A DNA stretch of 46,969 nt, from IMG/VR virus record IMGVR_UViG_3300045988_152627, one strand, 5' to 3'. Source of the stretch: a virus (taxonomy: Duplodnaviria > Heunggongvirae > Uroviricota > Caudoviricetes). The stretch's first letter is position 1. Every line of letters begins with the position of its first letter. The notes beneath the pieces are model-generated. The model worked only from the letters and a program-made list of their open reading frames with translations, ran no database searches and was not told where the DNA came from. Positions 26,084 to 46,092 of the stretch are shown piece by piece. The translations under genes were made by a program, and so were the position numbers.

Positions 26084-26159
26084 TTGGTGGCCCCTACCGG
26101 ATTTGAACCGATGACCGTGCGATTATGAGTCGCCTGCTCTAACCACTGAGCTAAGGGGC
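26084..26159 (-). tRNA. tRNA with CAU anticodon, most similar to tRNA-Ile2 (ileX-type); elongator Met not excluded
   Basis: 76-nt cloverleaf GGCCCCTTAGCTCAGTGGTTAGAGCAGGCGACTCATAATCGCACGGTCATCGGTTCAAATCCGGTAGGGGCCACCA: 7-bp acceptor stem, D and T arms, CTCATAA anticodon loop, encoded CCA. Confidence 0.85.
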
Positions 26160-26329
26160 CATATTTGATCTGTTTGTCTGGTGTGGCGCCGCGCACGAAA
26201 ATCCCAGCCAATAAATTCAGGATTTTTGGGCGCGGCGGCATATCAGACAAACATGGTTGATGCGTGCGCCCATGAGAAAAGCGCATAGAATGTTGTAACT
26301 ATATATTTATATAATTATAGAAATATATA

Positions 26330-34673: not shown

Positions 34674-34847
34674 TTAACGAACTCCAATTAAAACCACGAT
34701 ATGTGGTATTAAAACCACATATCGTGAGTTTTTCAATGGGCGAAACAAAAAATAACCTTCTAATTGTGGTCCACCTCTCGTCTTACCATGTGAAAACCAC
34801 TAAATGTGGTAATGTATAAATAACCCACCATTCACGATTGATGAGAC
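34674..34847. promoter_or_regulatory. Immunity-region operator/promoter block with three CCAC-N5-GTGG-type operators
   Basis: ACCACGATATGTGGT (34693..34707), ACCACATATCGTGAG (34713..34727), ACCACTAAATGTGGT (34796..34810) between divergent repressor and Cro-like genes. Confidence 0.6.
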
Positions 34848-35504
34848 ATGAAAAGCAACGACGAGAACATCAAGAAAGAAATAGGTCTGCGCATTCAGAC
34901 TCTACGGAAACAATCCGGCATGACTGCCGGAGATCTCCAGCAAGTCACTGGAATAGGCTTAAGCACCTTGCAGAACTATGAGGCCGGATTAAGACAACCA
35001 TCTATACCTGCCATCAAGAAAATCGCGCACGCCCTGAAAGCATCAGCGCCTTATATCGCGTGCTTAACAGATAACCCGTTCCCACCCCAGAATACTAACG
35101 CTCCTGTTATTCCTGGGCTTGTAGCTATAAAAAATGACATAGCATCGCACGCCGGAGAAAAGCCAGTGCTGGCGATAGAACAGGAGATTCTACGAAGCAA
35201 GAACATCAACCCATCGTCTCTGTCAGTTCTCCAGAGCAACGATGAGTTAATGTCACCAACAATATCCCCAGGCTCCCAAGTCCTGATTAATACAGACGAT
35301 ACAGAGATTCATGAGGGGATCTATGCCCTTGAAGACAGAAATGGCCTGGTTGTTTTGAGGCACTGTAGAGTCATACCGGGTGACAATGCTGTTATGCTGT
35401 CAACCGAAAGGGATGCTGAAATGAACACTAATCATCTGAATAACGAGGAATTTAAGCGTTATAAAGTTCTTGGCCGCGTAGTTAGTGTTGTCAACTGGTT
35501 ATGA
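34848..35504 (+). CDS. CI-like repressor (XRE HTH + S24/LexA-like C-terminal domain)
   Basis: 218 aa; HTH TAGDLQQVTGIGLSTLQNYEAG; C-terminal LexA/UmuD-like layout ending KVLGRVVSVVNWL. Confidence 0.8.
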   Translation: MKSNDENIKKEIGLRIQTLRKQSGMTAGDLQQVTGIGLSTLQNYEAGLRQPSIPAIKKIAHALKASAPYIACLTDNPFPPQNTNAPVIPGLVAIKNDIASHAGEKPVLAIEQEILRSKNINPSSLSVLQSNDELMSPTISPGSQVLINTDDTEIHEGIYALEDRNGLVVLRHCRVIPGDNAVMLSTERDAEMNTNHLNNEEFKRYKVLGRVVSVVNWL

Positions 35505-35545
35505 TACACAGCACGGCGAAAGCCGTGCATTTCTACGCTCAAAAA

Positions 35546-35560
35546 AACCACGCTTTGTGG
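35546..35560. promoter_or_regulatory. Operator-like palindrome ACCACGCTTTGTGGT overlapping a promoter for 35597..35971
   Basis: Same CCAC-N5-GTGG pattern as the immunity-region operators; followed by TTGACA and TATAAA elements and RBS AAGAGG. Confidence 0.45.
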
Positions 35561-35596
35561 TTTTGACAACATGTGAAAGTATAAAAGAGGCTACGC

Positions 35597-35971
35597 ATGG
35601 AATTACATACAGCCAATAAAAACGAAACTCTGATCACTGCTGGAATCGAAATCCAAGCGTTGAACATAGCGATTGAGTGTATGTTATGCCAAATCATTGA
35701 TAATGAGAAAGATATCGACTGGATAGAATCTATCCTTCATCTGGCATCAGAACAAAAAGTCTGCCTCAAAACGGCCTTACAATACGATGTGCCAGCGGTA
35801 TCGAAGCTGTGCCAGCCATTGATGGCATATAACAGGGCTATTACTTCTGTATGCCTCATGATTCTTGATGAAAACACCCCTCTTAGTGACCGCTCAGAAG
35901 CTGCTCTAACCCTCTCACGTAAACAGCGACAGCTAGCAAATCAACTGATATCAACGATAGCTGACCTCTGA
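35597..35971 (+). CDS. Hypothetical protein in the rex-equivalent position downstream of the repressor
   Basis: 124 aa ORF with strong RBS, followed by terminator hairpin 35976..35999. Confidence 0.45.
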   Translation: MELHTANKNETLITAGIEIQALNIAIECMLCQIIDNEKDIDWIESILHLASEQKVCLKTALQYDVPAVSKLCQPLMAYNRAITSVCLMILDENTPLSDRSEAALTLSRKQRQLANQLISTIADL

Positions 35972-36106
35972 CTGAAAGCGGGCTAACGCCCGCTTATATG
36001 ATTATAGATTTATATAATTATATAAAACGCTTTTCATCCGCCAAAAAGTTGGTTATGCTTACCTCGTTCTATAAATATAGATTTATAGAATTATATAACC
36101 AAACAC

Positions 36107-36775
36107 ATGGAGTCTCGACAAATGACTATCTCTGTAGGTATTTTCAACGGAAAAGGCGGCGTAACCAAATCAACAATTGCCCGTGCTTTAGCAGTTGCTT
36201 ATGCAAAGGCCGGCTGGAATGTATGCCTGATCGATATGGATGTGCTTAACGGAACGGTAACGCGTTGGGTACAACGCAGAATGGCCAACAATATCGAACC
36301 TGCAATCGCGGCGCAGCCGTGCGGCACGCCATCACAAGTCCAGAAAATCATCGAATCAGAAGTATACGACCTGGTTATCGTTGATGGCGGTGCCTACGCA
36401 TCTGAATCAGTACCGAAGCTCTCTGAATTTCTGGATATGGTTATTTTGCCAACCAGATTCTCTACCGATGACCTAGAAACCACCGTTAACACAGCTCACG
36501 GCATCGTTAAAAAGGGTGTACCAATCAAGAAAATTTGCATGGTGTTTTCCGGCGCGGCTGAAAACGAAGCTGACTATATTGAAGCCCAAGAGTACCTGGC
36601 TAATACGCCATACTTTGTTGTCGATAAGTACATTCCCCACAAGCCAGCTCTGAGCAAAGCTCAGGATAAGGGCTTAAGCCTCATTGAGTGCTCATACGTT
36701 GCGCCACGCAAAAAGGCAGACGACGTTATTCAGGGGATTATCAACCAGCTTGAGGCTCTGACTACTGCCGCGTAA
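36107..36775 (+). CDS. parA: ParA-family partition ATPase (small, type Ib)
   Basis: 222 aa with deviant Walker A NGKGGVTKST and later VIVDGGA motif. Confidence 0.85.
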   Translation: MESRQMTISVGIFNGKGGVTKSTIARALAVAYAKAGWNVCLIDMDVLNGTVTRWVQRRMANNIEPAIAAQPCGTPSQVQKIIESEVYDLVIVDGGAYASESVPKLSEFLDMVILPTRFSTDDLETTVNTAHGIVKKGVPIKKICMVFSGAAENEADYIEAQEYLANTPYFVVDKYIPHKPALSKAQDKGLSLIECSYVAPRKKADDVIQGIINQLEALTTAA

Positions 36776-36818
36776 TATATAATTATAGTTTTATAGATTT
36801 ATATAAGATGGGATACAC

Positions 36819-37279: not shown

Positions 37280-37295
37280 ATTCAACCATAAAAAA

Positions 37296-37311
37296 GGCCC
37301 CCGAAGGGGCC
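37296..37311. terminator. Bidirectional terminator hairpin GGCCCCCGAAGGGGCC
   Basis: Perfect GC-rich hairpin flanked by an A-run upstream and T-rich sequence on the opposite strand. Confidence 0.55.
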
Positions 37312-37877
37312 TAATCGCTACTTGCTGCTAATGTTTATCGTCACATTCAGAGCGTTATCAGTAATCTTCCAACCCTCCCCATGTGGCGTAAACAAAGCCC
37401 CAGTAACAACGATAAAAATACACATACAGTATTTTTTCATTGTATGGCCCTTACAGGCCGTTTCACGGCATCCCCACCGACGAAAACAACGCGAGAGCAA
37501 GCACGGCTGCTTGTGCTTGCATGTACGGCAACAGGAAATCCTCCCCTAAAGTCGGTGCCCGGGTGCGAATCGGCGGGAAGGTCCACAGGTATTTTACGAT
37601 TATTTTAAGATTAGTAATAGGAAATAAATTAAACGAAAAAACCAGTTTATTTTCACAAAATCAGTAACCTACCCACAATCTGTGAGTTTGCAGACACAAC
37701 AAGAACCACAATTTTTTGAAGCATAATAGTGGACTATTATTACCTTTTGGGTAAAATCAACTTGCTGCTTGTGCTTGCGTGGTTGTTTATACAACAACGT
37801 AATGCTGAAAGGACCGCGAATCCGATCAGCACGAAAGAACCGTCCTCAATAGGGCGGTTTTTTTGTTTCTTCACTCA

Positions 37878-38417
37878 TTAAAACAGTCCAAGACCTGTTA
37901 ATGGCTTCTGATAATCTCGATTATTCATATCAGCGCCGTTATCGACCCAATTTCTATATGCTTCATCGCAACAATACATTACAGCAGTTGGAGTATCTGG
38001 GATGCCGCCCCCAAATGAGAATCCCATTGAGCTAATGCTAACTCTTTCTAATGGCCTATTTCTCAATGCTTCAAACCCCTTGCTATTAAAGTAACGCAGC
38101 ATCAGAGGTAAAAGGTTATCCTCGTCCTGACTGATTGTTCCAGGGAAAAAGTAGTAACCATAACGGTTAAATTCGGGAATAAGATTTTCTACCAATGACA
38201 TGAAATTCACTGGAGTAATATTAAGGGCTGTGAAAGCACCAAAAAGGGCGTCAACTGTTAATACAGACTGCCCGTTCTCTATCTTTGTCCATGCGTTTGG
38301 TGTTTTTCCAGCAGCTTGAGCCAGTACTCCTTGATGCACACCTCTTTCTAGCCTAAGTTCTTTTATGATCATTAGGTGAATTGTTGAAAAACATGAGTTT
38401 TTTGACTGTTCAATCAT
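37878..38417 (-). CDS. XRE-type HTH domain fused to an uncharacterised C-terminal domain
   Basis: 179 aa; N-terminal HTH LAQAAGKTPNAWTKIENGQSVLTVDALF; low-GC gene flanked by AT-rich non-coding DNA. Confidence 0.5.
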   Translation of the reverse strand: MIEQSKNSCFSTIHLMIIKELRLERGVHQGVLAQAAGKTPNAWTKIENGQSVLTVDALFGAFTALNITPVNFMSLVENLIPEFNRYGYYFFPGTISQDEDNLLPLMLRYFNSKGFEALRNRPLERVSISSMGFSFGGGIPDTPTAVMYCCDEAYRNWVDNGADMNNRDYQKPLTGLGLF

Positions 38418-38554: not shown

Positions 38555-38569
38555 CCCACACTATGTGGT
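38555..38569. promoter_or_regulatory. Operator-like palindrome CCCACACTATGTGGT upstream of the antirepressor operon
   Basis: CCAC-N5-GTGG pattern 25 bp upstream of a TTGACA element at 38593..38598. Confidence 0.45.
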
Positions 38570-38864
38570 TGTCTCTGTTAAAATCCCGCCGTATTGACAT
38601 GAATGCGCCATTGGTGGACACTTTCCGAGCCGTAGCAAAATCTACGGTCGGGATTAGCCTCCTGAATAACACGATGGCGCATACCGCGTTAGCGGTTTTT
38701 TTATGCGTAGAGCACTGTTACGCCCAAATTATGGTGGGTCGTACAGGGGCGGAGAAATCCGCGCCGGTTCGTCATTGTGTCCGGTAAGGCTAACCCTGTA
38801 CGGCTCACCACCATTTGATTAGCCTCGAATGGCGGTGATAGTTCCATATATTGGAGATATCACA

Positions 38865-39056
38865 ATGACAAACTTACCCCATGACTATTACGTCAACCTC
38901 GTAAAGATCCTTCTCAAGAAAGCCTCATACGCCGATAAATTCCGCCTGGCTGAAATAATCGAGCGCGAAGCTATGCGCATCGCCAGCAACGATAACGCTG
39001 TTTCTGACGCAAAAATCTCCCTCGTAACCAAAGTAGTTATGGGAGGTGCAAAATGA
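38865..39056 (+). CDS. Hypothetical small protein, coupled to the antirepressor
   Basis: 63 aa from ATG 38865 (RBS GGAGAT); stop overlaps the antirepressor start. Confidence 0.35.
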   Translation: MTNLPHDYYVNLVKILLKKASYADKFRLAEIIEREAMRIASNDNAVSDAKISLVTKVVMGGAK

Positions 39057-40195
39057 AAACGCTTCCGACCGTTAACACCCTACAGCCTATCCTGCATAAC
39101 CAGATCCCCGTTATCACCACGGAGCTGCTTGCCAAACTATATGGCTGTAGCGTCGAATGTCTTCACAGAAATCACCACCGTAATAAGTCCCGGTTTACAG
39201 AAGGAAAACATTTCATAGTTGTAAAAGGTACAGATCTCCAAAGTTTGAAAATCTCTTTAAGAGATTTTCAAACCATCGCGAATAACGTTAGAAAGCTCAT
39301 CCTCTGGACCGAACGCGGGGCTGCACGTCACGCTAAAATGCTCGAAACCGATCAGGCATGGGATGTATTCGAACGGCTGGAAGACTGCTACTTCAACCAG
39401 AACGCGCAAACGGCCGCGACCGTAACCGTCTCACCAAACAATGCTCGTGAGGTTGTCGATACGCTCAACGCTAAACCAATGTATTACGTTAAGGTGTGCA
39501 ACAACGAGCCACTCACAACCTCAGCCGATGTTGCCCAAGCATTCAGCACCACAAACAATTCCATCGTTATGGCCATCGATGCGTTACGTATTCCTCGCAC
39601 AGCTGCGGCGCGTCACTTCTTTAAAGAACAACGACCGCTGGAAGGAAGCGACCGCGAAATAACAATCTATCGCATGACAAAAGACGGATTTACCTTGCTC
39701 ATGGAAAGTATCGACGGTCCAGGCGTGAAGGATATCAAGCTGGCCTACATTGAAGCCTTTAACGCTATCAGCAGCGTGTTAAAGGCAGAATACGAGCGAA
39801 TGCTATACAACCGACTGTATCAGGAAACAAAGATTATCCGAACGGCAACAGAACATCATCGGCTATTAACGGAACCAAACTACCGCAAGACACTAATCAA
39901 AGAATTTGACAAGGCGACGGAGAAAACTAAAGCGGCACTAAATCTACCAACAATGACTAAAGATGATGTGATATCAGCCTTACTTCTTGATCTGCTCAGA
40001 AACGCCAGAGCACTTATCAGTTTTGACGAAAACCTGAATCCTCAGCTCAAGCTACTACCACCGACAGGCAAAGTAGTCGACCAAGCAGATCACAACAGCA
40101 TACTCAGCGTACTGGATGCAAACCTGCCAGCCAGGACACTACAGGAGCTGATAAAAATATCTGCGGATAAACTGGCCGCAGGTGCAAAACCATAA
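39053..40195 (+). CDS. Phage antirepressor (KilA-N/ORF6N-like N-terminus plus Rha-like domain)
   Basis: 380 aa; N-terminal ITTELLAKLYGCS...KHFIVVKGTDL and central TSADVAQAFSTTNNSIVMAIDAL resembling the Rha motif. Confidence 0.65.
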   Translation: MKTLPTVNTLQPILHNQIPVITTELLAKLYGCSVECLHRNHHRNKSRFTEGKHFIVVKGTDLQSLKISLRDFQTIANNVRKLILWTERGAARHAKMLETDQAWDVFERLEDCYFNQNAQTAATVTVSPNNAREVVDTLNAKPMYYVKVCNNEPLTTSADVAQAFSTTNNSIVMAIDALRIPRTAAARHFFKEQRPLEGSDREITIYRMTKDGFTLLMESIDGPGVKDIKLAYIEAFNAISSVLKAEYERMLYNRLYQETKIIRTATEHHRLLTEPNYRKTLIKEFDKATEKTKAALNLPTMTKDDVISALLLDLLRNARALISFDENLNPQLKLLPPTGKVVDQADHNSILSVLDANLPARTLQELIKISADKLAAGAKP

Positions 40196-42402: not shown

Positions 42403-42783
42403 TTACTTAACGAGGAATAAAAATGGTTTATCGTTCGGCGGTGTACTCGGGGCTGGCTCGCTTTTGCTCATACGATCAGTGTACCAGGCCAGCTCCTTGT
42501 CAAAGTAAGCCTGATTAAAATAGGCCATGAATGTGGTTTCAAATCCATAACGACCGCTAATACGCAGCATCTGATTGCCGTTCTCTGTTTCCAGATATAC
42601 CTGGGCACGTTCCTGATTCTCCTTCAGCCAAGTTAAAGCCTCGTCGCACGAGGACACACGATACTCATCATCGTAGCCGTCATCGATGCGGCTTGAAGGA
42701 GAACGGCAAATCACGCCAACAGAACCAGCCAGGATAGTTTGAATTTTAAGGAAAGCGTTTTTGCGGATTTTAATCATGCTCAT
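42403..42783 (-). CDS. Hypothetical protein
   Basis: 126 aa; start codon sits exactly at the end of promoter-leader cassette copy 3. Confidence 0.4.
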   Translation of the reverse strand: MSMIKIRKNAFLKIQTILAGSVGVICRSPSSRIDDGYDDEYRVSSCDEALTWLKENQERAQVYLETENGNQMLRISGRYGFETTFMAYFNQAYFDKELAWYTDRMSKSEPAPSTPPNDKPFLFLVK

Positions 42784-42900
42784 CGGGTTATCTCCGGTTT
42801 AACCAGGGCGGGTATCGCTCGGTTTCGGGTATAACATTAGGAAATTTTTTCCCACCTGTAAAGCACTTTTATATAAATCTATAATTATATAATTCTATGA
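42784..42900 (-). promoter_or_regulatory. Promoter-leader cassette copy 3 (TTTACA-N17-TAATGT)
   Basis: Minus-strand -35 at 42857..42862 and -10 at 42834..42839; about 88 bp identical to copy 1 from the ATG up to the -35. Confidence 0.6.
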
Positions 42901-45054: not shown

Positions 45055-45903
45055 TTAATGCTGGAGTGATTTCCAGGTCTTTCTTAGCCTGTTATAACGC
45101 TGCTCAACGAGGGATCGTAAATATGCAAGGTCAGCTCCAGGATACATGCCATCAGCAAATTCCTGGCTAACCTCTCTAGTGATTTGATGACGAAGTTCGG
45201 CCTCTCCCTTTTCCCGAACAAGACGCGCAGCTCTCTCCGCTGCTTTCTGTTTTGCCTTTATCTCTCTAGCCGTCTTCCTCTGACGCCATACATTCTCCAT
45301 CTGCTCCTGAATAACAATACGCTTATAATCAGCCTCCGTTATCGCTTTTTTAAGCCGTTCGCTATTCTTCGCATTGAAGTAATTAAGTTTCTGGCTAACC
45401 GCACGTCTCCATGCTTGTTCAGTAATACCAACGGTTTCCAGAAGTTGATCACGAATCTCTATTTTCGCTGGCCAATACTGTTTATTCACCCGATCCCAGC
45501 GACGTTCATAATCAATAAAACCTAACGCTTTCAGTTGCGACAACGCCCTTGTACAGCGCGTTATAGACTTGTTCCCAGCTTCGGATACGGTAGACAGGCC
45601 GCAAAAATCAGCCAACGCCTCAGCACTGGCCAGAACCCGCTTAGAAATGATGTTTACATGGTGCAAAATCGCAGCAATCACAGCATTAATCGCCCGACGA
45701 CGATGCTCGTTTATCCGGCGTTTCCGCTCTGACGGTTGATTAACGTAGAACGCAACCTCACACGTAAGATCACGACCATTAATGCGCTGTAAAGCATCAG
45801 ATAACACCAGCGGCAGCTTGTGCGTATGGTGCTTTGGAGGCTGGAACTCCGGCGACAAATTACAAACGTAAGCTGAACGTAGAGACTGCATTGGTCTATC
45901 CAT
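45055..45903 (-). CDS. repA: Plasmid replication initiator RepA, IncFII RepA1 family
   Basis: Segment RRAINAVIAAILHH...GNKSITRCTRALSQLKALGFIDYE parallels RepA1 RRAIDALLQGL...GKLSITRATRALTFLSELGLITYQ; start taken at the internal ATG 45903 (about 282 aa); the longer ORF to 46041 overlaps the antisense RNA. Confidence 0.8.
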   Translation of the reverse strand: MDRPMQSLRSAYVCNLSPEFQPPKHHTHKLPLVLSDALQRINGRDLTCEVAFYVNQPSERKRRINEHRRRAINAVIAAILHHVNIISKRVLASAEALADFCGLSTVSEAGNKSITRCTRALSQLKALGFIDYERRWDRVNKQYWPAKIEIRDQLLETVGITEQAWRRAVSQKLNYFNAKNSERLKKAITEADYKRIVIQEQMENVWRQRKTAREIKAKQKAAERAARLVREKGEAELRHQITREVSQEFADGMYPGADLAYLRSLVEQRYNRLRKTWKSLQH

Positions 45904-45947
45904 ATGTTCGCTCTTGCGTCCACGGAAAACCAACGTATAATGGGAGT

Positions 45948-46036
45948 TGTCGAGGCGCCCATGGATTGTTGTTGGTTTTTGTTTCTTTCCGTGGATGTCG
46001 CAAGAAGCCCGCAGATTTATCTGCGGGCTTTTTGTT
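45948..46036 (+). ncRNA. CopA-like antisense RNA candidate (countertranscript to the repA leader)
   Basis: Plus-strand promoter TTGCGT-N16-TATAAT (45914..45941), stem-loop AAAACCAAC/GTTGGTTTT, and terminator hairpin AGCCCGCAGA-TTTA-TCTGCGGGCT plus T-run (46006..46036). Confidence 0.5.
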
Positions 46037-46077
46037 TCCATATCTGGTCACTTTCCAACCAGACACCCACAATCATA

Positions 46078-46092
46078 ACCACGTTACGTGGT
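46078..46092. promoter_or_regulatory. Operator-like palindrome ACCACGTTACGTGGT upstream of the repA leader
   Basis: Same CCAC-N5-GTGG pattern as the repressor operators, between the invertase stop and the repA control region. Confidence 0.4.

What the first reader, a model, noticed from the sequence alone, without database searches (positions are those of the whole stretch)
35597..35971. Unknown gene in the rex-equivalent position downstream of the repressor
A 124-aa ORF with strong RBS sits immediately after the repressor gene on the same strand, behind a promoter that overlaps an operator-like palindrome, and ends in a terminator. In lambdoid phages this slot typically carries lysogen-expressed exclusion genes.
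Basis: inference. Interest (0 to 1): 0.5.

Follow-up and report, generated by a model that had tools for sequence, protein, structure and literature searches.

The report
Operator-gated orphan gene beside phage-plasmid repressor
A real, conserved gene for a small helical protein of unknown function sits just after the repressor gene of a 48-kb E. coli phage-plasmid; a terminator and a repressor-binding site separate it from that gene, so the repressor probably turns it down rather than co-expressing it as lambda does with rex.

Summary
The ORF (35597-35971, 124 aa) is a genuine gene. It is kept in every known relative of this ~48-kb phage-plasmid, always between the cI-like repressor and parA, with dN/dS about 0.2-0.3. 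The RBS, the operator-like palindrome and the downstream hairpin are real. The claimed promoter is not: TTGACA and TATAAA are only 11 nt apart and are not conserved.

The palindrome ACCAC-N5-GTGGT is the same operator found three times between cI and the lytic operon, and once upstream of IncFII repA (4 perfect copies, 0.01 expected). A conserved hairpin with a T-run separates cI from the ORF. The layout therefore differs from lambda cI-rexAB. The gene is an insulated single-gene unit in which bound CI must block either its own promoter or read-through.

The protein is an acidic, soluble, generic four-helix bundle (pLDDT 91.8). It has no homologue outside this lineage and no Pfam, NCBIfam, PADLOC or structural lead. 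It is the fastest-evolving gene of the block.

Best reading (about 0.35): a CI-gated part of the immunity module that works by protein binding, with logic like P1 Coi but no homology to it. A Rex-like exclusion role is not excluded, but the layout argues against it. The function remains unproven.

The parts
34848..35504 (+). cI-like repressor gene (218 aa): N-terminal HTH, C-terminal S24-like domain lacking the self-cleavage residues
   Evidence: Pfam HTH_3 4.5e-11; Peptidase_S24 0.0026, below the cut-off. PHROG 4, transcriptional repressor. LexA Ser119 aligns with Leu, Lys156 with Arg, and Ala-Gly with Asn-Asp in the three lineages aligned with LexA, lambda CI and UmuD (window, L003, L008). 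The surrounding motifs are kept in all 11 lineages.
35511..35534 (+). Hairpin GCACGGC-GAAA-GCCGTGC plus T-rich tail: terminator of the cI transcript
   Evidence: -15 kcal/mol, z -4.7. 94% of cells are paired across 10 lineages, with one compensatory change. The T-run is T6 in 8 of 10 lineages but only ATTTCT in this window.
35543..35565 (.). Operator O4: AAAACCAC-GCTTT-GTGGTTTT (core 35547-35561)
   Evidence: Perfect match to the operator motif of the cI/lytic intergenic region. 4 perfect copies against 0.01 expected. Present in all 10 divergent lineages at the same place. Also present at this position in the Salmonella relative L011.
35563..35585 (+).
   Evidence: The hexamers are 11 nt apart, are not called by the scan and are not conserved. 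TGnGAAAGT is only a weak extended -10 candidate.
35585..35590 (+). Shine-Dalgarno AAGAGG, 6 nt before the ATG
   Evidence: Read directly from the sequence. GAGAGG, AAGAGG or GTGAGG is kept in all lineages.
35597..35971 (+). ORF124: acidic, soluble four-helix-bundle protein of an orphan family (phrog_7632)
35976..36005 (+). Hairpin AAGCGGGC-TAAC-GCCCGCTT plus T/A-rich tail: terminator of ORF124; its tail merges into the first par iteron cluster
   Evidence: -15.1 kcal/mol, z -5.3. The stem GCGGGC/GCCCGC is kept in the five relatives whose sequence extends past the ORF (L003, L005, L007, L009, L010), with varying loops; the most divergent lineage, L008, has no such hairpin after its stop codon.
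34693..34810 (.). Operators O1 (34693-34707), O2 (34714-34728, 2 mismatches) and O3 (34796-34810) between the lytic operon and cI
   Evidence: The lytic promoter TTGAAA-17-TTTAAT has O2 in its spacer and O1 just after its -10 (PWM score 11.6).
46078..46092 (.). Fifth operator copy, upstream of IncFII-type repA (45055-46041, -)
   Evidence: An equivalent site is conserved in L011.

Best explanation
ORF124 is a lineage-specific part of the immunity module of a ~48-kb circular phage-plasmid. The element carries a lambda-type CI/Cro switch, IncFII RepA, ParA plus a ParG-like protein, and a P1-type isrK/C4-Ant operon.

Shown:
- It is a single-gene unit fenced by two conserved hairpins.
- A CI operator lies between the upstream terminator and its ribosome-binding site.
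- The product is a soluble, acidic, four-helix-bundle protein with no DNA-binding or enzymatic signature.

Inferred, regulation: only about 25 nt separate the operator from the Shine-Dalgarno sequence. Any sigma-70 promoter that produces a leadered mRNA must therefore overlap the operator, and any read-through from cI must cross it. Either way, bound CI lowers ORF124 transcription. Expression should be inverse to CI level: highest just after infection, at induction, or when plasmid copy number and CI fall, and low in a settled lysogen.

Inferred, molecular role (weaker): it acts by binding another protein. The most likely target is the repressor switch itself, as an anti-repressor or modulator. 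This is the logic of P1 Coi, the gene next to c1 that is controlled by C1 operators and inactivates C1. There is no homology to Coi.
For: - Operator identity and non-random occurrence.
- The order terminator, operator, SD, ORF, terminator is kept in 10 divergent lineages at about 70% nucleotide identity.
- The same operator sits inside the lytic promoter, at the cI promoter and upstream of repA, so it is a working regulatory site of this element.
- Linkage with cI is absolute: 61 of 61 plasmids, 11 of 11 IMG/VR relatives, and all lineages including the most distant (CI 24-43%, ORF124 24-31% identical).
- The gene does not belong to the par module. ParA homologues occur on 570 other plasmids that lack it. 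ParA and ParG are 92-96% conserved where ORF124 is 49-59%.
- It is the fastest-evolving gene of the block (dN 0.32-0.45 against CI 0.26-0.29) yet is under purifying selection (omega 0.18-0.27).
- CI lacks the Ser, Lys and Ala-Gly needed for self-cleavage, so the switch must be flipped by protein factors.
- pI is 4.4-4.8, there is no membrane segment, and conserved acidic/polar residues cluster in helices 1-2.
- The AF2 model is confident: pLDDT 91.8.
- The P1 precedent (C1, Coi, dispersed operators) comes from PMC8546580 and the P1 annotation.
Against: - No convincing promoter was found, so the mode of transcription is unproven.
- In this window the cI terminator has a poor T-tract (ATTTCT), so some cI read-through, and hence lysogenic expression, is possible.
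- repA carries the same operator and must still be expressed in the plasmid state, so an operator does not mean 'off in lysogens'.
- There is no sequence similarity to P1 Coi (hhalign probability 0.2%).
- A separate C4-controlled Ant protein is already present in most lineages and could supply anti-repression.
- An ORF124 allele with 7 amino-acid changes sits next to a 99%-identical cI (L030, L031), and distance correlations with CI are no better than shared ancestry would give. There is thus no specific co-evolution signal.
- The fold is generic and gives no functional lead.
Confidence: 0.35

Rival explanations
1. Rex-like reading: ORF124 is made in lysogens, by read-through from the cI promoter or from a weak promoter of its own, and excludes or aborts superinfecting phages.
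For: - It lies directly downstream of the repressor on the same strand.
- The window's cI terminator has a weak T-tract.
- Fast protein evolution and a local recombination patch in some alleles fit a conflict gene.
- Prophage defence genes are often placed next to repressors (established knowledge: lambda rexAB).
Against: - A conserved terminator plus a CI operator lies between cI and the ORF.
- The gene is universal in, and exclusive to, one lineage, not patchy and mobile like defence morons.
- No PADLOC, Pfam RexA/RexB or other defence hit.
- No membrane segment or effector domain.
- A 124-aa helical bundle alone has no obvious killing or blocking activity.
Confidence: 0.18
2. Establishment or early function unrelated to the switch: ORF124 is de-repressed when CI is absent (fresh infection or induction). 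It binds a host or defence protein (anti-defence, host takeover) to help the incoming genome.
For: - CI-gated layout.
- Same operator as at repA, whose burst on entry is classic IncFII behaviour.
- Acidic, protein-binding type of fold.
- Rapid evolution.
Against: - The early leftward operon already provides a CI-controlled route for early genes, so a separate insulated cassette next to cI is not needed for this.
- The net charge (-6 to -12) is too mild for a DNA mimic such as Ocr or ArdA.
- No similarity to any anti-defence family.
Confidence: 0.2
3. Plasmid-maintenance coupling: ORF124 is co-regulated with repA by CI acting as a copy-number sensor (CopB-like). It acts on replication, partition or cell division when copy number falls.
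For: - The operator is shared with the repA upstream region.
- The gene abuts the par iterons and parA.
- It is universal in the lineage.
Against: - It is separated from par by its own terminator.
- ParA relatives elsewhere lack it.
- It evolves about 10 times faster than ParA and ParG, which would be odd for a partner of those proteins.
- Frameshifted alleles exist on apparently maintained plasmids, although some may be sequencing errors.
Confidence: 0.12
4. The operator at 35547 serves CI itself, and ORF124 regulation is incidental. It would be a distal site for CI looping to the main operators about 750-850 bp away, as with lambda OL-OR or 186 FL/FR. ORF124 would then be a weakly expressed accessory gene of unrelated function.
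For: - The site lies just past the cI gene, at looping distance from O1-O3.
- No clear promoter is associated with it.
Against: - Its position is fixed between the terminator and the SD in all lineages.
- The most divergent lineage, L008, has a full site plus a half site there.
- Looping and gating of ORF124 are not mutually exclusive.
Confidence: 0.1

Closest known systems
Lambda rexA-rexB (exclusion genes co-transcribed with cI from PRM)
   Same: The gene lies immediately downstream of the prophage repressor on the same strand, inside the immunity region.
   Different: - Rex is a two-gene operon with no terminator or operator between cI and rexA, and RexB is a polytopic membrane protein.
- Here there is one soluble 124-aa protein, set apart from cI by a conserved terminator and a CI operator.
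- There is no sequence or family match.
Phage P1 Coi (C1 inactivator, immC region) and the P1 tripartite immunity system
   Same: - Both elements are phage-plasmids whose repressor is not SOS-cleaved and binds dispersed operators, including one at a replication gene.
- Both have a small acidic protein gene next to the repressor gene with the repressor's operator in front.
- Both have a separate C4-RNA-controlled ant operon.
   Different: - Coi is 69 aa, lies upstream of c1 and shares an operon with it. ORF124 is 124 aa, lies downstream and is a separate unit.
- There is no detectable homology (hhalign probability 0.2%).
- Binding to the repressor is untested.
Distal CI operators used for looping (lambda OL-OR; coliphage 186 FL/FR)
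   Same: An extra copy of the repressor's operator lies a few hundred bp from the main switch, on the far side of the cI gene.
   Different: Here the site lies exactly between a terminator and the ribosome-binding site of a gene, so it is placed to gate that gene. Looping itself has not been tested.
Generic up-down four-helix bundles (de novo bundles, cytochrome b562, FAT/talin rod, HPt, 4HB sensor domains)
   Different: Sequence identity is 4-15%. The top hits are designed proteins, and no Foldseek hit is below E 0.02. The similarity is fold-level only and carries no functional meaning.

Membership tests
Lambda Rex (RexA/RexB) exclusion system | Co-transcribed with cI from the maintenance promoter, with no intervening terminator | tested here: not met
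   A conserved hairpin with a T-run and a CI operator lie between cI and the ORF in all 10 lineages.
Lambda Rex (RexA/RexB) exclusion system | Two components, including a polytopic membrane protein (RexB) | tested here: not met
   Single gene. The maximum Kyte-Doolittle 19-residue mean is 0.9-1.8, always over segments that hold conserved Glu/Asn/Gln. AF2 gives a soluble four-helix bundle.
Lambda Rex (RexA/RexB) exclusion system | Sequence membership in the RexA or RexB families | tested here: not met
   No Pfam, NCBIfam or PADLOC hit for any of 11 family members.
Lambda Rex (RexA/RexB) exclusion system | Abortive-infection or exclusion phenotype in lysogens | not testable with these tools
   Needs plating assays.
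P1 Coi-type repressor inactivator | Sequence homology to Coi | tested here: not met
   hhalign of the ORF124 family profile against P1 Coi: probability 0.2%, E 0.28.
P1 Coi-type repressor inactivator | Gene adjacent to the repressor gene, with the repressor's operator at its 5' end | tested here: met
   The operator at 35547-35561 lies 36 nt before the ATG and 43 nt after the cI stop codon, and is conserved in all lineages.
P1 Coi-type repressor inactivator | Promoter repressed by the repressor | tested here: inconclusive
   No canonical promoter was found. The geometry forces any promoter to overlap the operator, but this is inference.
P1 Coi-type repressor inactivator | Forms a complex with the repressor and releases it from DNA | not testable with these tools
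It needs two-hybrid, pull-down or EMSA experiments.
Known anti-phage defence systems (PADLOC-DB 2.0) | Match to any defence-protein model | tested here: not met
   0 families at E <= 0.1.
Type Ib partition module (ParA + ParG-like + iterons) | Co-occurs with the ParA family and shares its conservation | tested here: not met
   ParA homologues occur on 631 plasmids, ORF124 on only 61. ParA is 92-96% identical where ORF124 is 49-59%. ORF124 has its own terminator before the iterons.

The most novel reading that the evidence does not exclude
ORF124 founds a new family of repressor-gated switch modulators. It would be a four-helix-bundle protein made only when CI is low, which then binds CI (or Ant, or Cro) to commit the element to lysis or to reset immunity. 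The same non-cleavable CI also gates IncFII repA, so one repressor would couple plasmid copy number, immunity and this modulator. That would be a lambda-type switch rebuilt with P1-type logic.
Probability: 0.2. Interest if true: 0.55.

Novelty: new variant of a known kind. Interest (0 to 1): 0.35.

Why it matters
Phage-plasmids of this type are common in clinical and animal Escherichia (61 complete plasmids) and also plate as phages on Yersinia pestis. Their lysis-lysogeny control has not been studied.

ORF124 is the only gene of the immunity block with no assignable role. It is also as strictly linked to cI as any gene in the element. If it modulates the repressor, it would explain how a CI that cannot self-cleave is controlled. 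It would also be a second example, non-homologous to P1 Coi, of a repressor-gated repressor antagonist in a plasmid prophage.

If instead it is an exclusion factor, it would be a new single-protein, non-membrane mechanism. Either outcome can be tested with simple genetics.

Full report
**What the window is.** The 3.5 kb around the finding is 98.9-99.2% identical to 58 circular, non-mobilizable plasmids of about 47-49 kb, mostly from Escherichia. It is 80-90% identical to three further plasmids. It is also 98.7-98.8% identical to three myophages isolated on Yersinia pestis, vB_YpM_39, 41 and 44. The window encodes:
- an IncFII-type RepA and a resolvase;
- a ParA ATPase and an 82-aa ParG-like protein;
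- a lambda gpA-type terminase;
- a lambda-style divergent switch, made of a 218-aa HTH + S24-like repressor (34848-35504, +) facing a leftward early operon whose first gene is a 164-aa Cro-like protein.

The element is therefore a phage-plasmid.

**Checking the observation.** The ORF, its start and its length are as stated. AAGAGG lies 6 nt before the ATG.

The palindrome at 35547-35561, ACCACGCTTTGTGGT, is a true operator copy. The pattern ACCAC-N5-GTGGT occurs perfectly four times in 47 kb against 0.01 expected:
- two copies lie in the cI/early intergenic region, with a third, 2-mismatch copy there;
- one lies here;
- one lies upstream of repA.

In the switch region the strong leftward promoter TTGAAA-17-TTTAAT has one operator in its spacer and another just after its -10. 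These sites are therefore functional repressor targets.

The stop codon is followed by a stable hairpin (-15.1 kcal/mol, z -5.3).

The 'promoter' does not hold up. TTGACA and TATAAA are 11 nt apart. The consensus scan calls nothing on the + strand. My PWM scan of six orthologous spacers found no strong or positionally conserved candidate. Neither hexamer is conserved.

It lies directly after the cI stop codon.

**The gene is real and strictly linked to cI.** RefSeq and the phage records annotate it as a hypothetical protein, and it matches phrog_7632 end to end.

Homologues are very few:
- 12 clusters in 5.8 billion proteins;
- 7 representatives in an exhaustive profile search of 1.84 billion;
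- 20 proteins with a broader profile.

All come from Enterobacteriaceae (Escherichia, Salmonella, Citrobacter, Yokenella, Enterobacter, Klebsiella). The complete contigs are about 46-49 kb.

I recovered the genomic context of ten divergent lineages (24-60% identity to the window protein). In every one the order is early operon, cI, ORF124 and, where the contig continues, parA and parG. All 61 related plasmids carry the gene, one with a frameshift. All 11 true CI relatives in IMG/VR carry it too.

Between the unsaturated pair L003/L005, dN/dS is 0.27. For L003/L007 it is 0.18. These values indicate purifying selection on a protein.

**Which module it belongs to.** At a divergence where synonymous sites are saturated, identities to the window are:

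| Protein | Identity |
|---|---|
| ParA | 92-96% |
| ParG | 92-95% |
| Cro-like protein | ~74% |
| CI | 61-65% |
| ORF124 | 49-59% |

ORF124 has the highest dN of the block (0.32-0.45). ParA homologues occur on 570 other plasmids that lack ORF124. ORF124 also ends in its own conserved hairpin before the first cluster of 8-bp par iterons. It is therefore not a partition gene. It behaves as part of the fast-evolving immunity block.

I looked for specific co-evolution with CI and did not find it. The distance correlations are what shared descent would give. The apparent mosaic L016 is a swap of the cro-like gene alone. In L030 and L031 an ORF124 allele with 13 synonymous and 7 non-synonymous differences sits beside a 99%-identical cI.

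**The regulatory layout.** An alignment of the 92-115-nt spacer from ten lineages (about 70% nucleotide identity overall) shows, in this order:
- the cI stop codon;
- a hairpin that is 94% paired, with one compensatory A-U to G-C change;
- a T-run (T6 in 8 of 10 lineages; ATTTCT in this window);
- an invariant AACCAC-N5-GTGG operator;
- about 25 nt that include a semi-conserved TGTrAAAGwwT block;
- the Shine-Dalgarno sequence and the ATG.

The most divergent lineage has a full operator plus a half site.

Two inferences follow. First, cI and ORF124 are not built to be co-transcribed, which is the opposite of lambda cI-rexAB. Second, only about 25 nt separate the operator from the SD. A promoter giving a leadered mRNA must therefore place its -35 or spacer over the operator, and any read-through from cI must pass it. 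In either case bound CI lowers expression. A class-II activating position (-41.5) would put the start at the ATG itself, which does not fit the conserved SD.

I therefore read ORF124 as CI-gated, meaning negatively controlled. The caveat is that repA carries the same operator and must still be expressed in the plasmid state. 'Gated' may therefore mean held low and homeostatic rather than silent.

**The protein.** AlphaFold2, run on the family alignment, gives a confident model (pLDDT 91.8, pTM 0.85). It is an up-down four-helix bundle with helices at 2-36, 40-61, 66-91 and 96-123.

Fold searches return only generic bundles:
- PDB Foldseek finds nothing below E 0.03.
- BFVD finds nothing below E 0.02.

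The family is acidic (pI 4.4-4.8, net charge -6 to -12) and has no credible membrane segment. The most conserved part is helix 1 and the start of helix 2. This region carries conserved polar residues N23, E27, Q32, D35, D41, E44 and S45. That pattern suggests a binding surface rather than a catalytic site. Nothing suggests DNA binding.

**Context that shapes the mechanism.** CI cannot self-cleave. The LexA/CI/UmuD catalytic Ser aligns with Leu, the Lys with Arg, and the Ala-Gly site with Asn-Asp in the three lineages aligned with the references, and the surrounding motifs are kept in all 11. Its HTH domain is 79-89% conserved among the nine closer lineages (about 43% in the most divergent, L008), which fits the invariant operators. 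Its C-terminal domain is only 48-57% conserved.

Rfam finds isrK and a C4 antisense RNA at 38629-38815, immediately upstream of a small ORF and a 380-aa ORF6N + pRha protein. This is the P1/P7/N15 immI layout (c4 RNA, icd, ant). The operon is present, with a very variable Ant, in most lineages but is absent from L013, which keeps ORF124.

The element thus combines a lambda-type CI/Cro switch with P1-type logic:
- a non-cleavable repressor with dispersed operators, including one at a replication gene;
- an RNA-controlled Ant;
- a small acidic gene beside the repressor gene, with the repressor's operator in front.

In P1 that last gene is coi. Its product binds C1 one-to-one and inactivates it, and both P1coi and Pc1 are repressed by C1 (PMC8546580; P1 annotation). 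ORF124 has no homology to Coi (hhalign probability 0.2%). This is a resemblance of logic, not membership.

**Verdict on mechanism.** The regulatory part (an insulated cassette that CI turns down) I hold at roughly 0.6. The specific role (a protein-binding modulator of the repressor switch, Coi-like) I hold at roughly 0.3. The combined statement I put at 0.35.

The rivals are:
- a Rex-like lysogenic exclusion factor (0.18);
- an establishment or anti-defence factor (0.20);
- a copy-number or partition coupling factor co-regulated with repA (0.12);
- an operator that mainly serves CI looping, with ORF124 incidental (0.10).

No sequence-based test available here separates these. The experiments listed under the next steps would.

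**Novelty and interest.** The gene family is uncharacterised and restricted to one phage-plasmid lineage, and the fold is ordinary. The notable feature is the conserved terminator-operator gate beside a non-cleavable CI. The kind is known: an accessory gene of an immunity region under repressor control. This instance is a non-homologous variant in an unstudied, clinically common element. I score interest at 0.35. It is a sound lead for phage-plasmid biology, but it is neither surprising in itself nor resolved.

Noticed in passing
window 46078-46092 (and L011 20331-20345): A perfect CI operator (ACCACGTTACGTGGT) lies between the resolvase gene and IncFII-type repA, immediately upstream of a -10-like TATGAT on the repA strand. 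It is conserved in the Salmonella relative. The prophage repressor may therefore control plasmid replication, much as CopB does in R1, linking immunity to copy number.
   Followed up: partly
window 38629-40195: Rfam finds isrK (38629-38702, 65.7 bits) and C4 antisense RNA (38727-38815, 70.8 bits) directly upstream of a 75-aa ORF and a 380-aa ORF6N + pRha protein. This is a P1/P7/N15-type immI anti-repressor operon. Ant is very variable between lineages (40-93% identity, with or without ORF6N), and the operon is absent from L013.
   Followed up: partly
window 34848-35504: The CI-like repressor has an S24-like C-terminal domain. The catalytic Ser is replaced by Leu, the Lys by Arg and the Ala-Gly cleavage site by Asn-Asp in the three lineages aligned with LexA, lambda CI and UmuD, and the surrounding motifs are kept in all 11. 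It should not be RecA-cleavable. No convincing LexA box was found in the window.
   Followed up: yes
window 37290-37586 (-): There is a full-length match to ryfA RNA (RF00126, 143 bits). It overlaps a small ORF that encodes a hydrophobic peptide (MKKYCMCIFIVVTGALF...). This looks like a type I toxin (TimP/ryfA-like) locus just right of the par genes.
   Followed up: no
window 35994-36033, 36067-36106, 36775-36814, 42869-42898: Four clusters of 8-bp iterons (TTATAGAT/TTATATAA) are present. Two flank the parA promoter region and one lies between parA and the ParG-like gene. The fourth lies 6 kb away, upstream of a 126-aa gene (42403-42783, -). It could be a second centromere or a ParG-regulated promoter.
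   Followed up: partly
window 38555-38569: An operator-like site with one mismatch (CCCACACTATGTGGT) lies about 25 nt upstream of a TTGACA (38594) that precedes isrK/C4. It lies between that operon and a divergent 179-aa HTH gene (37878-38417, -). CI might also control the immI-like operon, as C1 does at Op51 in P1.
   Followed up: no
L030 and L031 (IMG/VR), ORF124 orthologue: ORF124 differs from the window at 13 synonymous and 7 non-synonymous codons, whereas the flanking cI differs at 2/2 and parA at 9/0. This is a local recombination patch confined to ORF124. It includes a change at the otherwise invariant E44.
   Followed up: partly
window 35752-35756 (A5 run in ORF124); P0009, P0010, P0011, P0012, P0017; CP042622.1: Several database alleles of ORF124 are truncated by frameshifts, mostly just after codon 54 at an A5 run. 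At least one such assembly (L041) also has a split cI, so some may be sequencing errors. Otherwise the gene is occasionally lost without loss of the plasmid.
   Followed up: partly
L016 2286-2780 compared with L003, L005 and L007: In one lineage only the cro-like 164-aa gene has been exchanged for a different allele (about 80% identical to the L007 type, 63-73% to its own backbone). cI, ORF124 and par follow the backbone. The operators are the same in all lineages, so Cro alleles appear interchangeable.
   Followed up: yes
window 26085-26160 (-): A tRNA-Met (CAT) gene lies within the phage part of the element.
   Followed up: no
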